Source of the DNA: a virus
Reading direction: 5' to 3' (one strand)
Length of the DNA: 64,000 nucleotides
Virus record (IMG/VR): IMGVR_UViG_3300021961_008157
This document shows, piece after piece, positions 7,514-39,178 of the stretch. Below the pieces are notes generated by a model. That model had not been told where the DNA came from, did no database searches, and worked only from the letters and a program-made list of their open reading frames with translations. How positions within the stretch are numbered: position 1 is the first letter of the stretch; each line of letters begins with the position of its first letter. Position numbers and translations under genes: made by a program.

Positions 7514-7542
7514 ATTATAGTACACTATTAATTAAATGTCAA
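7514..7542 (-). promoter_or_regulatory. Consensus sigma70 promoter for tRNA-Leu/tRNA-Ile
   Basis: TTGACA-17 bp-TATAAT. Confidence 0.85.
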
Positions 7543-13734: not shown

Positions 13735-13739
13735 ATCTG

Positions 13740-14110
13740 GTTGTTTATTTTACAAGGTAAGTCCTACCCCGGGTCTGGCTCAAAGTGCCAGTACAGCGGC
13801 CTTGCTACGGCTGTAGAACTTGATGTTCTTGCCGCTAACAGTTACGCTACCATTTGTAGATGCGTTTGCATTTACTAGTTTTATGCGATTAACGTTCGTC
13901 ATCTAACGTGCTGTCCAGTTCAATACTCTTTACTCAATCGATCGCTATGTCAGGCCCATCATAAACACATTGGATTTTGGATTCGAACCTTGTCCTAGTG
14001 TTGTCCATCTGCACTTCCCACAGTACTGAACCCTATGTGTTTATGGTGGACCTGCCCGGTACCGCCCCGGGGTCTTGAATCCTTTTCTATCACCTTCATA
14101 CAGCAATAAC
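13740..14110 (-). ncRNA. ssrA: Circularly permuted (two-piece) tmRNA
   Basis: The 3' acceptor half (...cccgg-GGCGGTA-ccggg-caggtcc-A-CCA, ending 14044) precedes the 5' half GGGCCTG (13957). G3:U70 pair present. Tag frame 13869-13780 after TAAAT: ANASTNGSVTVSGKNIKFYSRSKAAVLAL*. Outer boundaries approximate. Confidence 0.88.
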
Positions 14111-14128
14111 TTACATTATATATTTATT
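14085..14128. repeat. 44-bp direct repeat, copy 1 (tmRNA 5' end and -10 region)
   Basis: ttctatcaccttcatacagcaataacttacattatatatttatt, identical to 15142-15185. Confidence 0.95.
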
Positions 14129-14144
14129 TTAGCCAATGATAAGT

Positions 14145-15017
14145 TTATAGGTTATGCTTTTTCCATTCTGCACGAACCCTGGCTTTAGACTTTGCTGATA
14201 ATGGAACATAGTCCAAATCTTTTGCCATTGAGTCGCCATTTGTATAGCACCATTCAAAGAACTTGATTGCTTCTTTCGCAGAGCTATCTGGATAAACAAT
14301 GATGTAAGTTTCAGCAGTTAATTTGTAGTTGCCTTCTTTGAAATTATCAAAATTTGCTTCAACACCGTCTAACTTAGCAACAGTTAAACTATTGGATTTG
14401 GTGTAAGCATATTCAACGTATCCAATGGAACCAGGCAATCGCATAACCATTGCAGCAACACCGGCGTTGCCTTTACCTTGTGCAATGTTGTTACCTTCCC
14501 ATTTAACTGTCTTTCCTGGTTTAGTTGTAAAACCGTGTTTAGCCAGATAGTTTGTAAAAACAGAAGTAGTGCCAGAACTATCAGCACGGGATATCCGAGT
14601 AATTGCCAAGTCAGGCAACTTAGAATCAATTTGCTTCCAGTTTGTAACACGACCATCAAAAATATCAGCTATCTGTTTGCTTGTTAAATTTAACTCATTG
14701 GTCTTGACACCTGGAATGTTTACTACTGCAACAACACCACCCATGACCATTGGGAACTGGATCTGACCATTCTCATCCAACTCTGCTTGTTTAACTGCTT
14801 CGTCACTTGCACCAAACTGTACAATCTTTCCATTAATCTGTTTGATTCCGCCGCCAGAACCAATCGCCTGATAGTTGACTTGCACACCTGTTGCTTTGTT
14901 ATACTCTGCTGCCCATTTGCTATAAATCGGCGCAGGAAAGGTAGCTCCTGCACCAGTGACTGTAATTGCTTGAGCATTAATTGCAAATGCAGCAAGAAGC
15001 ATTAATAATTTTTTCAT
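14145..15017 (-). CDS. pstS: Phosphate ABC transporter substrate-binding protein
   Basis: GAGATFPAPIY, GSGGG, FGASD and RADSSGTT motifs. Confidence 0.95.
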   Translation of the reverse strand: MKKLLMLLAAFAINAQAITVTGAGATFPAPIYSKWAAEYNKATGVQVNYQAIGSGGGIKQINGKIVQFGASDEAVKQAELDENGQIQFPMVMGGVVAVVNIPGVKTNELNLTSKQIADIFDGRVTNWKQIDSKLPDLAITRISRADSSGTTSVFTNYLAKHGFTTKPGKTVKWEGNNIAQGKGNAGVAAMVMRLPGSIGYVEYAYTKSNSLTVAKLDGVEANFDNFKEGNYKLTAETYIIVYPDSSAKEAIKFFEWCYTNGDSMAKDLDYVPLSAKSKARVRAEWKKHNL

Positions 15018-15141: not shown

Positions 15142-15185
15142 TTCTATCACCTTCATACAGCAATAACTTACATTATATATTTATT
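15142..15185. repeat. 44-bp direct repeat, copy 2
   Basis: Identical to 14085-14128. Confidence 0.95.
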
Positions 15186-15200
15186 CATTATTTTTGTCAA
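15172..15200 (-). promoter_or_regulatory. sigma70 promoter with embedded ATAAATA
   Basis: TTGACA-17 bp-TATAAT. Confidence 0.75.
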
Positions 15201-17049: not shown

Positions 17050-17139
17050 TGGCGGAAGCGGTGAGATTCGAACTCACGATACCGGTTAAGGTATGACGGG
17101 TTAGTAATCCGTTGCCTTCGGCCACTCGGCCACGCTTCC
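17050..17139 (-). tRNA. tRNA-Ser(ACT)
   Basis: Ser-type body (GGAAGCG acceptor, long variable arm, G73, CCA); anticodon loop TT ACT AA. Confidence 0.85.
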
Positions 17140-17636
17140 TAAAATTGTCCATTAACTGATCGTAATCTAGCATTACCCAAATCACGAAAACGATCTGCTG
17201 CATAACTTGCAGCAAACGCATGGGGTTTAACTGCGGGGGTAAGATTACAAGTTCCTTTTATATATCCAATGGCTTGTGCAATTACACAATTAGAACCATG
17301 TGTTTCATCGGGATTGATGTCTAAATGTACTTCAACAAACCTGCCGGCAAACGAGTCACTTAATCGCTGATACATGTCGGACACTTTATAAACTTCGTTC
17401 ATCAGTCGCAATGCGGGACGACCCACACGATTATCCCAGTCACGCTCCCGCACCACTTCTCCGAATATTTTACAGCCACTATTGCCATTAATGTGCACCA
17501 CAATGGCTAGAGTGTAATCTGCATACCAACCGTCGAATAGTTTAACACGCTCACTGTCACAACCTAGGTAGATACGGGTTTCGGCGCTTTGGGCTTGAAT
17601 AAACTCCTTGACCTGCTCTATGTCGATTGTTTGCAT
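17139..17636 (-). CDS. RNase H-like YkuK (DUF458) family protein
   Basis: IYLGCDS, EVHLDIN and KP.AFAASYAAD motifs. Confidence 0.85.
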   Translation of the reverse strand: MQTIDIEQVKEFIQAQSAETRIYLGCDSERVKLFDGWYADYTLAIVVHINGNSGCKIFGEVVRERDWDNRVGRPALRLMNEVYKVSDMYQRLSDSFAGRFVEVHLDINPDETHGSNCVIAQAIGYIKGTCNLTPAVKPHAFAASYAADRFRDLGNARLRSVNGQF

Positions 17637-19604: not shown

Positions 19605-19723
19605 ATATAATTGGTTCGGTTTGTCTGACACTTAACCAATGAACTCTAGAATTCATTACGCTAAATTTCAAACCCAGGGTATTTAACCCGCGACATCAAT
19701 ACACCGAAAGGTTTTGATGCGTG

Positions 19724-19778
19724 TCCTTGATAGCATCACTGCTATTTCGTCCTTGTTACGTTGGACTCATCAGAAGGA
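19724..19778 (-). ncRNA. Type I hammerhead ribozyme
   Basis: tcctt-CTGATGA-gtcc[aacgtaacaa]ggac-GAAA-tagca[gtga]tgcta-TC-aagga: complete core with stems I-III. Confidence 0.92.
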
Positions 19779-19788
19779 TAACGTTGTT

Positions 19789-19863
19789 TGGTGCGCCCGG
19801 GGAATTCCGACATCCCGACCCAGCGATTATGAGTCGCTTGCTCTGCCCCTGAGCTACAGGCGC
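19789..19863 (-). tRNA. tRNA with CAT anticodon (Met or lysidine-type Ile2)
   Basis: agcga-CT CAT AA-tcgct; atypical T-loop GTCGGAA; CCA. Confidence 0.8.
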
Positions 19864-19903
19864 ATATTATAGAAAAGCTGACCGTCAGCTTATATATAAC
19901 AAA

Positions 19904-19915
19904 TTTTAAAGAACA
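19904..19915 (-). promoter_or_regulatory. boxA-like antitermination element
   Basis: TGTTCTTTAAAA versus rrn boxA TGCTCTTTAACA, just upstream of the tRNA array. Confidence 0.55.
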
Positions 19916-19989
19916 GTTGCATCAGTATTTTGCCGTTATAGCAAACCTCTCACTCGTTTGAATGACACAGTCACACTCTGACACAAAAA

Positions 19990-20218
19990 TGCTCTGCGTC
20001 CCCCGGCGGTAATTATACTGCATCAACGTAGCCCACAGACAGGACCCACCGCATCACACACAGCCTCCACCCGCTTCCCGACAGGGACCGTTCTCGCATT
20101 GCCAGCGCCGGTTAGGTTGGACCGCATCTTTCGACGTAAGACTATTATGTCTTAGAACCACCCGTGGCTATCACACCACTTCAATCCTCCGGGTCAGAGT
20201 AGCCGTTGATTAAACGGC
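19990..20218 (-). ncRNA. Unidentified highly structured ncRNA
   Basis: GC-rich non-coding block with nested long-range stems (ctctg/cagag, cccgg/ccggg, ggtggtt/aattacc) and several hairpins; own promoter. Confidence 0.65.
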
Positions 20219-20241
20219 ACGGTTTTTACTGTCTAAACGTT

Positions 20242-20270
20242 ATTATATAACAAATTTGATTTAATGTCAA
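20242..20270 (-). promoter_or_regulatory. Consensus sigma70 promoter for the ncRNA/tRNA transcript
   Basis: TTGACA-17 bp-TATAAT. Confidence 0.85.
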
Positions 20271-39149: not shown

Positions 39150-39178
39150 ATTATACAAGGTATTTAGACAGTTGTCAA
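39150..39178 (-). promoter_or_regulatory. sigma70 promoter of folE with embedded TAAATA
   Basis: TTGACA-actgtcTAAATAccttg-TATAAT (17 bp). Confidence 0.75.

What the first reader, a model, noticed from the sequence alone, without database searches (positions are those of the whole stretch)
19990..20270. Unrecognised ~230-nt multi-branched ncRNA with its own consensus promoter at the head of the tRNA operon
This GC-rich non-coding block follows TTGACA-17-TATAAT. It has nested long-range pairings (ctctg/cagag, cccgg/ccggg, ggtggtt/aattacc, cgct/agcg) and hairpins (gccgtt/aacggc, taagac/gtctta, cgtc-GAAA-gatg, cggt/accg, tccc/ggga, gtgggtcc/gggctac). I do not recognise RNase P, SRP, 6S or group I/II intron signatures in it. 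Its complexity is what one expects of a ribozyme or a large phage RNA motif.
Basis: partly seen in the sequence, partly recalled or inferred. Interest (0 to 1): 0.7.

Follow-up and report, generated by a model that had tools for sequence, protein, structure and literature searches.

The report
New knotted RNA in phage tRNA islands
The flagged stretch is a real 235-base, intricately folded non-coding RNA gene of a family found once per genome among the tRNA genes of uncultured giant phages; it matches no catalogued RNA family and its job is unknown.

Summary
Window 19990-20224 (minus strand) is a GC-rich, ORF-free 235-nt RNA gene behind a perfect TTGACA-17-TATAAT promoter, upstream of a tRNA operon. 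It is not a one-off. Relatives occur once in each of 161 IMG/VR phage contigs and one MAG contig. All 15 near-complete 262-525 kb phage genomes tested have it. It always lies inside same-strand tRNA arrays, often 0-3 nt after a tRNA CCA end. Covariation is strong: 95.6% of cells paired versus 74% in shuffles, and 460 double changes versus 145. It supports seven helices, an L1-L3 kissing loop and a k-turn, with pseudoknots likely. Rfam 15 gives no match at E<=10. There was no hit in 50,697 cultured-phage records or in the literature library. GOLLD RNA sits separately in the same islands in some genomes. Function is unknown. My best guess is a stable trans-acting RNA matured along with the tRNAs. 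A self-cleaving ribozyme and an RNA-only assembly remain open. This scan has found the same family before on other DNA (e1-5389030, e1-5375737, e1-5820354, e1-5820361).

The parts
20265..20270 (-). -35 hexamer TTGACA
   Evidence: 12 of 12 match; 11 near-consensus sites in the window, all on the minus strand, 0.96 expected
20242..20247 (-). -10 hexamer TATAAT. The start of transcription is inferred near 20233-20236, about 10 nt before the conserved RNA.
   Evidence: the start site is inferred, not measured
19990..20224 (-). The RNA gene, 235 nt, a long-form member of the family
   Evidence: Homology limits from blastn and nhmmer against 161 loci; alignment A1; coordinates mapped
20219..20224 (-). 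Conserved 5' end AACCGU (family consensus AACGUU). CGU may pair with ACG at 20089-20092.
   Evidence: In 90 loci this motif starts 0-3 nt after a tRNA CCA.
20202..20218 (-). H1 hairpin GCCGUU/AACGGC. Its loop AUC kisses the H3 loop.
   Evidence: 5 of 5 pairs with double changes; columns 18-64: GC 42, AU 19
20187..20199 (-). H2 hairpin CUCUG-ACC-CGGAG with an invariant C-rich loop
   Evidence: 99.7% paired; 3 pairs with double changes
20179..20186 (-). J2/3 GAUUGAAG (consensus GAUGAGAAG), conserved and single-stranded
20165..20178 (-). H3 hairpin. Its loop GUGAUA has a T-loop-like UGAYA; GAU pairs with AUC of the H1 loop.
20156..20164 (-). Motif 1, CGGGUGGUU (invariant GGGUGGU). Candidate pseudoknot strand.
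   Evidence: U74-A148 changes to C-G in 6 of 111
20126..20155 (-). Long-form insertion: hairpin UAAGAC/GUCUUA plus hairpin CGUC-GAAA-GAUG (GNRA loop)
   Evidence: 20 of 111 unique members carry such an insertion; the second hairpin is usually GNRA-capped
20108..20125 (-). H4 hairpin CGGU/ACCG with loop CCAACCUA (invariant ACC)
   Evidence: 4 of 5 pairs with double changes
20095..20107 (-). H5: a 3-bp stem CGC/GCG with 7-nt loop UGGCAAU
   Evidence: C-G to U-A in 22 of 70; last loop U covaries with A of AGAAC: 105 UA, 6 CG
20065..20094 (-). Invariant core AGAACGGUCCCUGUCGGGAAGCGGGUGGAG. It holds the H6 candidate UCCC-UGUC-GGGA and motif 2, GGGUGGA.
   Evidence: A 20-mer from here matches exactly in 93 IMG/VR contigs; the pairing is unresolved
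20017..20064 (-). H7 (GCUGUG/UGCAGU), a k-turn (bulge UGU, tandem G.A from UGAU/UGAU) and the variable hairpin H8
19990..20016 (-). Invariant 3' tail AUAAUUACCGCCGGGGGACGCAGAGCA
19871..19890 (-). Terminator-like hairpin AGCUGAC-G-GUCAGCU followed by UUUUCU, between the RNA and the first tRNA. Its role is unclear.
   Evidence: Read from the sequence; not listed by the scan
19792..19863 (-). First downstream tRNA (anticodon CAU)
   Evidence: Rfam tRNA, 46 bits; missed by ARAGORN

Best explanation
Window 19990-20224 (minus strand) encodes a member of a widespread, uncatalogued family of pseudoknotted non-coding RNAs. Family members are about 175-280 nt long. Uncultivated giant (jumbo) phages carry one copy inside their tRNA gene islands. 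In this phage the RNA is transcribed from its own consensus sigma-70-type promoter at the head of a run of tRNA genes. In most relatives it occupies a 'tRNA slot', starting 0-3 nt after the CCA of one tRNA and ending a few nt before the next. Shown: the RNA has a five-hairpin 5' domain (H1-H5) with an H1-H3 loop-loop kiss. It also has an almost invariant core with two GGGUGGN motifs and C-rich partner loops. A k-turn arm is dispensable in a few members, and there is an invariant 3' tail. Inferred: it is released as a stable RNA by the same nucleases that mature the tRNAs (RNase P at the next tRNA; an endonuclease or the transcription start at its 5' end). It then acts in trans during infection. 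Its near-invariant unpaired core most likely binds a highly conserved partner of the translation or tRNA apparatus: tRNA 3' ends, the ribosome, or a protein. I put about 0.3 on that functional guess.
For: Homologs: an exact 20-mer occurs in 93 IMG/VR contigs. Only 1 contig among 185,579 prokaryote species genomes has the 20-mer. Genomes: 15 of 15 phage records of 262-525 kb have it, 13 of them at least 90% complete. Fourteen have a single copy and the 525-kb record has two. Context: 157 of 161 loci contain tRNAs, and all 2200 tRNAs are on the RNA's strand. In 90 loci a tRNA ends 0-3 nt before AACGUU. In 47 loci a tRNA starts 2-18 nt (46 of them within 10 nt) after GCAGAGCA. Structure: 95.6% of cells are paired, against 74.4% in shuffles and 29-46% when partners are slid. 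There are 460 double-change cells against 145 in shuffles, and 0 of 500 shuffles reach the observed value. The kissing loop appears in three variants: GUC/GAC, AUC/GAU and ACG/CGU. Many G-U pairs fix the strand. The k-turn signature is present. The promoter is supported. There is no Rfam match, no cultured-phage match and no literature match by motif.
Against: The MFE is not more stable than shuffles. No partner was identified. L7Ae and RtcB are absent from 15 of 15 carrier genomes. The recurrent neighbour PF04308 is in only 10 of 15. Pairings inside the invariant core cannot be resolved by covariation. The terminator-like hairpin at 19871-19890 leaves open whether the RNA and the tRNAs share one transcript in this phage.
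Confidence: 0.8

Rival explanations
1. It is a self-cleaving or processing ribozyme that cuts at its own 5' edge, as HDV-like theta, glmS and hatchet ribozymes do. The cut would release the upstream tRNA with a finished CCA end.
For: In 90 loci the conserved 5' AACGUU begins 0-3 nt after a tRNA CCA. This junction needs an endonucleolytic cut, and no acceptor-like helix for RNase P is visible there. The core is invariant and pseudoknotted, as in ribozymes. A hammerhead-like motif lies in the same operon.
Against: There is only one copy per genome, although the arrays hold dozens of tRNAs. The upstream tRNA differs from phage to phage: Tyr, Ser, Cys, Glu, Asn, Asp, Arg, Met or Pro. In this window and in many relatives no tRNA lies upstream; a promoter or a terminator-like hairpin is there instead. 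No known self-cleaving class matches.
Confidence: 0.12
2. It is an RNA-only architectural particle. Like GOLLD and ROOL, the ornate phage RNAs found near tRNA islands, it would assemble into homo-oligomers, and its loop-loop contacts might form between molecules.
For: It shares the genomic niche of GOLLD and ROOL (PMC12286853). GOLLD lies 0.2-2 kb from it on the same strand in 4 of 15 genomes and in L060. It has conserved loops that could pair in trans, GNRA-capped insertions and a k-turn. No protein partner was found.
Against: It is three to four times smaller than ROOL or GOLLD. Nothing here distinguishes contacts within one molecule from contacts between molecules. An H-type geometry of motif 1 with the H4 loop is sterically natural within one molecule (inference).
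Confidence: 0.15
3. It is a strongly diverged form of a housekeeping RNA (RNase P RNA, SRP RNA, 5S rRNA) or a T-box-like tRNA sensor.
For: There are short resemblances. GGUCC...GGAAGC recalls SRP helix 8. GAGAAGU...CGGGU recalls RNase P CR-I. GGGUGGNA equals the core of the T-box motif that binds tRNA NCCA ends. All three comparisons rest on my recall of those consensus sequences, not on a tool result.
Against: No Rfam model for these families scores at E<=10 on the window or on 9 homologs. The 5' end does not pair with the 3' end, so there is no P1. The candidate helix-8 loop is UGUC rather than GNAR, and its flanks are not complementary. There is no Stem I or specifier.
Confidence: 0.04
4. 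It is a cis-acting leader (riboswitch or attenuator) that controls read-through into the downstream tRNAs.
For: In this window it lies between a promoter and the tRNAs. It is followed by a U run, and a terminator-like hairpin lies 100 nt further on.
Against: In most relatives it sits in the middle of an array, directly between two tRNAs, with no terminator. The U run after GCAGAGCA is not conserved.
Confidence: 0.04

Closest known systems
Phage T4 small stable RNAs rnaC and rnaD (species 1 and 2 RNAs)
   Same: Both are non-tRNA stable RNAs that occupy tRNA slots in a phage tRNA cluster, on the tRNA strand. In the T4 record rnaD starts 1 nt after tRNA-Arg and rnaC starts 6 nt after rnaD. Their function is also still unknown (my recollection of the T4 literature).
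   Different: There is no sequence relationship: nhmmer --max at E<=100 gives no hit. The T4 RNAs are shorter (119 and 139 nt). rnaC ends in a tRNA-like T arm. The RNA here has no T arm and a different, pseudoknotted fold.
GOLLD (RF02032) and ROOL ornate RNAs of phages and prophages
   Same: They are large, elaborately folded phage RNAs of unknown function, often near tRNA islands (PMC12286853). GOLLD is found in the very same islands as this RNA.
   Different: There is no match to either Rfam model. This RNA is about 200 nt, against about 580 nt and 800 nt or more. The two co-occur rather than replace one another.
T-box antiterminator and RNase P L15 (CCA-end binding by UGGN or GGU)
   Same: This RNA has two invariant GGGUGGN motifs. 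The same G-rich words pair with the tRNA 3' end in T-box and RNase P RNAs (from established knowledge, not tested here).
   Different: None of the architecture of either family is present. Here the motifs have internal C-rich partners, and one covarying pair was found: U74-A148 changes to C-G.
Candidate structured RNAs catalogued from IMG/VR (Fremin et al. 2023, PMC10690425)
   Same: They come from the same data source and are of the same kind: conserved structured RNAs of uncultivated phages, some overlapping tRNA regions.
   Different: I could not establish whether this family is among their 8,495 candidates, because the supplements are not held. The paper's text does not describe it.

Membership tests
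The new family itself (tRNA-island knotted RNA of jumbo phages) | Invariant core (GAACGGUCCCUGUCGGGAAGCGGGUGG), motif 1 (GGGUGGU) and the 3' tail (AAUUACCGCCGRGGGAYG..CAGAGCA) | tested here: met
   The window carries all of them
The new family itself (tRNA-island knotted RNA of jumbo phages) | Helices H1-H5 and H7, with an L1-L3 kissing pair | tested here: met
   The window's sequences pair in every helix. Loop AUC of H1 matches loop GAU of H3.
The new family itself (tRNA-island knotted RNA of jumbo phages) | Location inside a tRNA array on the same strand | tested here: met
   tRNAs at 19863-19312 lie on the minus strand. The same holds in 157 of 161 loci.
RNase P RNA (Rfam RF00010, RF00011 and relatives) | Match to the covariance models; P1 formed by the 5' and 3' ends; P4 pseudoknot with CR-I and CR-V | tested here: not met
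   No hit at E<=10 in the window or in 9 homologs. The 5' end does not pair with the 3' tail.
SRP RNA (helix 8 / domain IV) | GNAR tetraloop, with symmetric and asymmetric loops held between complementary helices | tested here: not met
   The loop is UGUC and the flanks AGA / GGUGG are not complementary. No SRP model scores.
GOLLD / ROOL | Match to Rfam models RF02032 / RF03087 | tested here: not met
   There is no hit on the RNA. GOLLD hits fall elsewhere in the same islands.
T-box leader | Stem I with a specifier loop, and an antiterminator with a UGGN bulge competing with a terminator | tested here: not met
   No T-box hit. Only the 8-nt word GGGUGGNA is shared.
Known self-cleaving ribozyme classes (hammerhead, HDV-like, twister, pistol, hatchet, glmS) | Match to the class model over the element | tested here: not met
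   There are no hits over 19990-20224. The only hammerhead-like hit is at 19723-19779, outside the RNA.
Known self-cleaving ribozyme classes (hammerhead, HDV-like, twister, pistol, hatchet, glmS) | Site-specific self-scission | not testable with these tools
   This needs in vitro transcription and cleavage assays.
T4 rnaC / rnaD | Sequence homology to the T4 RNAs | tested here: not met
   nhmmer --max at E<=100 gives no hit in T4 69.5-74.5 kb.
Kink-turn (structural module, not a family of genes) | C stem, 3-nt bulge, tandem sheared G.A/A.G, then NC stem | tested here: met
   C stem at columns 205-210 / 288-293; bulge UGU; G214 and A215 in 103 of 111; G286 in 89 and A287 in 90 of 111. Window coordinates are 20064-20052 and 20026-20017. 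The 3D kink itself was not tested.

The most novel reading that the evidence does not exclude
The RNA is a new class of functional RNA that acts directly on the tRNA pool. One option is a trans-acting binder of tRNA 3'-CCA ends that uses its two invariant GGGUGGN motifs, a free-standing analogue of the T-box and RNase P CCA-binding sites. The other option is a new ribozyme class that processes or protects phage tRNAs. It would be made by giant phages as part of their takeover of host translation.
Probability: 0.15. Interest if true: 0.95.

Novelty: categorically new. Interest (0 to 1): 0.78.

Why it matters
Giant phages carry large tRNA islands, tmRNAs and translation genes, and how they take over host translation is an open question. 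This is a single-copy RNA with ribozyme-grade conservation and a knotted fold. All 15 near-complete carrier genomes tested have it, and it is absent from Rfam and from all cultured-phage records searched. With GOLLD, ROOL and T4 rnaC/rnaD, it belongs to a small set of phage tRNA-island RNAs whose function has resisted explanation for years to decades. At about 200 nt it is the most tractable of these for structure determination and biochemistry. A defined consensus, covariation-backed helices and clear junction rules make direct experiments possible now.

Tried and rejected
1. Rfam at gathering scores and at E<=10, on the window and on nine homologous loci: nothing over the RNA.
2. blastn against 50,697 cultured-phage records, with the window region and with a consensus-like member: only tRNA hits, or none.
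3. Neighbour-gene routes to homologs. The phrog_18771 gene gave 38 loci without the RNA; five of their large contigs also lack it. The TonB-receptor-like gene gave no relatives.
4. Thermodynamic z-score: uninformative.
Profile HMMs were used instead.
7. Protein partners. Clustering of neighbour genes gave only island passengers: HNH and other endonucleases, a metallophosphoesterase, DnaJ, an S11 peptidase and a YkuK-like protein. PF04308 is in 10 of 15 genomes; L7Ae and RtcB are in 0 of 15.
8. Protein-coding reading, rejected. No conserved ORF, member lengths fall in all three residue classes modulo 3, and changes are compensatory. The antisense ORFs seen in 53 loci are spurious.
9. Resemblances to 5S rRNA, SRP helix 8, RNase P CR-I and the T-box, considered from memory: none meets the family's defining features.
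10. Literature search by motif and by topic: no description found.

Full report
WHAT IS AT THE COORDINATES

Read on the minus strand, the window shows TTGACA-17-TATAAT at 20270-20242 (12 of 12). About 20 nt further on, a GC-rich block begins. Windows spanning 19980-20219 are 52-58% GC, against roughly 27-45% in most flanking windows, and the block is G-rich on the minus strand. It holds no ORF above 35 aa on either strand. A tRNA with anticodon CAU follows at 19863-19792. After that come a hammerhead-like motif and three more tRNAs, all on the minus strand.

The promoter is not an isolated match. The window has 11 sites within one mismatch of the sigma-70 consensus. All are on the minus strand, and 0.96 are expected by chance. 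The minimum-free-energy fold is no more stable than shuffled sequence: z = 0.10 on the minus strand and -1.38 on the plus strand. The sequence alone therefore does not prove a structure.

HOMOLOGS

No Rfam 15 family matches, at gathering scores or at E<=10. No record among 50,697 cultured or deposited phages resembles the RNA. Searching IMG/VR changed the picture.
- A 20-mer from the middle of the block matched exactly in 93 viral contigs.
- A profile HMM finds exactly one copy in each of 161 loci, with lengths of 174-281 nt and a typical length of about 200 nt.
- Among one genome for each of 185,579 prokaryote species, the 20-mer occurs once, on a 23-kb contig of a Haliscomenobacter MAG.
- All 15 large carrier records tested (262-525 kb) have it. 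Thirteen are at least 90% complete and three have terminal repeats. Fourteen have a single copy and the 525-kb record has two.

The element is therefore a conserved single-copy gene of uncultivated jumbo phages. The window's DNA polymerase is about 50% identical to that of Sinorhizobium phage Phosso and 47% identical to that of Agrobacterium phage Atu_ph07. This places the source among such phages.

GENOMIC CONTEXT

In 157 of 161 loci ARAGORN finds tRNAs. All 2200 of them lie on the RNA's strand.
- In 90 loci a tRNA ends 0-3 nt before the conserved 5' words AACGUU, for example ...CCA|GAACGUUCC.
- In 47 loci the next tRNA starts 2-18 nt (46 of them within 10 nt) after the invariant 3' end ...GCAGAGCA.
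- The flanking tRNAs differ between phages. Upstream they are Tyr, Ser, Cys, Glu, Asn, Asp, Arg, Met or Pro. Downstream they are mostly Cys, Ala, Asp, Tyr or Ile.
- In other loci, as in this window, the RNA follows a promoter-like or terminator-like sequence instead of a tRNA.

The RNA thus occupies a 'tRNA slot'. This is the same layout as T4 rnaD and rnaC behind tRNA-Arg in the T4 record. The family HMM finds nothing in T4. GOLLD RNA, a known ornate phage RNA of tRNA islands (PMC12286853), lies separately in the same islands. It is 0.2-2 kb away on the same strand in 4 of 15 genomes and in locus L060.

STRUCTURE

I aligned the window with 69 members that are less than 93% identical to one another (A1). 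On this alignment the helices I derived fare as follows.
- 95.6% of cells form standard pairs, against 74.4% in column shuffles and 29-46% when partners are slid by 1-3 columns.
- 460 cells carry a change on both sides, against 145 in shuffles.
- The covariation score is 0.599 against 0.214.
- None of 500 shuffles reaches the observed values.

The supported elements, with window coordinates, are:
- H1, 20218-20202
- H2, 20199-20187
- H3, 20178-20165
- H4, 20125-20108
- H5, 20107-20095
- H7, 20064-20059 paired with 20022-20017
- the base of the variable hairpin H8

A mutual-information scan adds a loop-loop kiss between H1 and H3. It occurs in three co-varying versions: GUC with GAC, AUC with GAU (the window's version), and ACG with CGU.

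H7 and H8 contain a kink-turn signature: a C stem, a 3-nt bulge UGU, and tandem G.A pairs from UGAU/UGAU. This arm is deleted in two members (L138, L183), so it is peripheral.

The window belongs to a long-form subgroup (20 of 111 unique sequences). These members carry an insertion after motif 1: a hairpin followed by a short hairpin that is usually GNRA-capped. In the window the loop is GAAA, at 20155-20126.

Frequent G-U pairs (for example 69 of 70 at one H7 position) would be C-A mismatches on the other strand. This fixes the minus strand as the transcribed strand.

THE INVARIANT CORE

The most conserved parts barely vary, so covariation cannot decide their pairing. They are:
- two GGGUGGN motifs (20164-20156 and 20074-20065)
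- the C-rich loops of H2 (ACCC) and H4 (ACC)
- GGUCCCUGUCGGGAAGC
- the 3' tail AAUUACCGCCGGGGGAYGCAGAGCA

Three informative co-variations exist.
- U74-A148 (motif 1 with the H4 loop) becomes C-G in 6 sequences. The same U-to-C change is equally compatible with pairing to the H2 loop.
- The last nucleotide of the H5 loop covaries perfectly with the A of AGAAC (105 U-A, 6 C-G).
- Column 70 covaries with column 147 (94 C/A, 17 A/U). I cannot place this pair in a helix.

RNAalifold proposes that the 3' tail pairs with the GUCCCU...GCGG strand, instead of a local UCCC/GGGA hairpin. Both are compatible with the few variants seen. My reading is a compact fold with at least two pseudoknots. The H-type pseudoknot of motif 1 with the adjacent H4 loop is the best supported.

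Of the four 'nested long-range pairings':
- ctctg/cagag is refuted. ctctg pairs with cggag in H2, and the 3' cagag never varies.
- cgct/agcg is refuted. cgc pairs locally in H5.
- cccgg/ccggg is not conserved.
- ggtggtt/aattacc remains possible but breaks in 6 of 111 sequences. GGUGGU with ACCGCC does not break.

WHAT IT IS NOT

- RNase P: no model hit, no P1, no P4 topology.
- SRP: the GGUCC...GGAAGC resemblance to helix 8 lacks the GNAR loop and the flanking helices.
- T-box: only the 8-nt word GGGUGGNA is shared.
- GOLLD and ROOL: no model hit, and GOLLD sits next to the RNA rather than in its place.
- A known self-cleaving class: no hits over the RNA.
- T4 rnaC or rnaD: no similarity.
- Protein-coding sequence: no conserved ORF, member lengths fall in all three residue classes modulo 3, and changes are compensatory.

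Relevant calls are 5, 6, 30, 38, 42, 57 and 61.

FUNCTION

Nothing computed here reveals the function. Neighbouring genes are island passengers: homing endonucleases, a metallophosphoesterase, a YkuK-like RNase-H-fold protein, an S11 peptidase and DnaJ. The YkuK-like gene (PF04308) recurs 3-8 kb downstream on the same strand. It is also in this window at 17139-17636. It is present in only 10 of 15 carrier genomes. L7Ae and RtcB are absent from all 15.

My best-supported reading is a stable, trans-acting RNA that is expressed and matured with the phage tRNAs. Several features argue for a folded RNA with a specific, conserved target. There is one copy per genome. The position within the arrays varies. 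A promoter-headed arrangement exists, as here. The unpaired core is nearly invariant while the helices are free to vary. I favour, weakly, the tRNA or translation apparatus as the target.

A self-cleaving role at the tRNA junction remains open (about 0.12). The 0-3 nt junction speaks for it. The single copy, the varied upstream tRNAs and the members with no upstream tRNA speak against it. A ROOL- or GOLLD-like RNA-only assembly also remains open (about 0.15).

EARLIER NOTES OF THIS SCAN

A look-up by sequence shows that the same family was flagged and followed up on other genomes: e1-5389030, e1-5375737, e1-5820354 and e1-5820361. Their conclusions match mine: a new knotted RNA among phage tRNAs, with T4 rnaC/rnaD or GOLLD/ROOL as the closest analogues. 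One of them reports its presence in lake RNA samples, which I could not check. One first-reader note (e1-5389048) raised the SRP helix-8 resemblance. I examined it and do not find the defining features.

VERDICT

This is a real, strongly conserved structured RNA gene of an uncatalogued family. The function is unknown.

Noticed in passing
L060:311-775 (-); records G011, G013, G017 and G019 (coordinates): GOLLD RNA (RF02032, 189-206 bits) lies in the same tRNA islands as the new RNA, on the same strand and 0.2-2 kb away. It is present in 4 of 15 near-complete jumbo phage genomes and in L060. None is present in this window.
   Followed up: partly
L039:1428-1670 and many other loci (L041, L058, L099, L111; also L199:5560-5625): Downstream of the RNA, many arrays carry two further conserved non-tRNA modules, each closed by a long end-to-end stem. 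One is CAUAUUGAAGCACA...UGUGUUUCAAUAUG, about 90 nt. The other is UUUUUAUAGUCAAGCA...UGCUUGACUAUAAAAA, about 150 nt. They look like additional uncatalogued RNA genes. Earlier notes of this scan mention a second family.
   Followed up: no
window 17139-17636 (-); 10 of 15 carrier genomes: A YkuK-like RNase-H-fold gene (PF04308) recurs 3-8 kb downstream of the RNA on the same strand, inside the tRNA island. It is absent from 5 of 15 carrier genomes, so it is not an obligate partner.
   Followed up: partly
window 19723-19779 (-): A type I hammerhead-like motif (26.6 bits, below Rfam's gathering score of 34, E = 0.0004) sits just after the tRNA(CAU). It is covered by another finding of this scan (e1-5879070).
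   Followed up: no
window 19792-19863 (-): This tRNA with anticodon CAU has an unusual T arm (GGGAUGUCGGAAUUCCCC). Rfam finds it (46 bits) but ARAGORN misses it.
   Followed up: no
window, whole (sites listed): There are eleven sigma-70 consensus promoters with at most 1 mismatch, all on the minus strand, where 0.96 are expected. Four are perfect: 7514-7542, 15172-15200, 20242-20270 and 39150-39178. The phage evidently uses host sigma-70 holoenzyme for this whole region.
   Followed up: partly
window 19891-19908 and 20241-20258 (-): The word AAAUUUGUUAUAUA occurs twice: over the -10 box of the RNA's promoter and again 110 nt after the RNA. The second copy is followed by a terminator-like hairpin (19871-19890) and a TATAAT that abuts the tRNA. 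This may be a duplicated promoter fragment.
   Followed up: no
window 13736-14158 (-) and L101:10047-10346: Circularly permuted two-piece tmRNA genes are present in this phage (96.6 bits) and in another carrier of the RNA (98.5 bits).
   Followed up: no
record G009 (524,565 bp): 424194-424392 (+) and 119583-119794 (-): This is the only record with two copies of the RNA (97% and 84% identical to the query), on opposite strands and 300 kb apart. It may be a true duplication, or an assembly that joins two related phages.
   Followed up: no
alignment A1, columns 70 and 147 (window 20164 and about 20118): There is perfect co-variation, C/A in 94 sequences and A/U in 17. One position is the nucleotide before motif 1 and the other is the nucleotide before ACC in the H4 loop. 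It does not fit any antiparallel register I could draw.
   Followed up: partly
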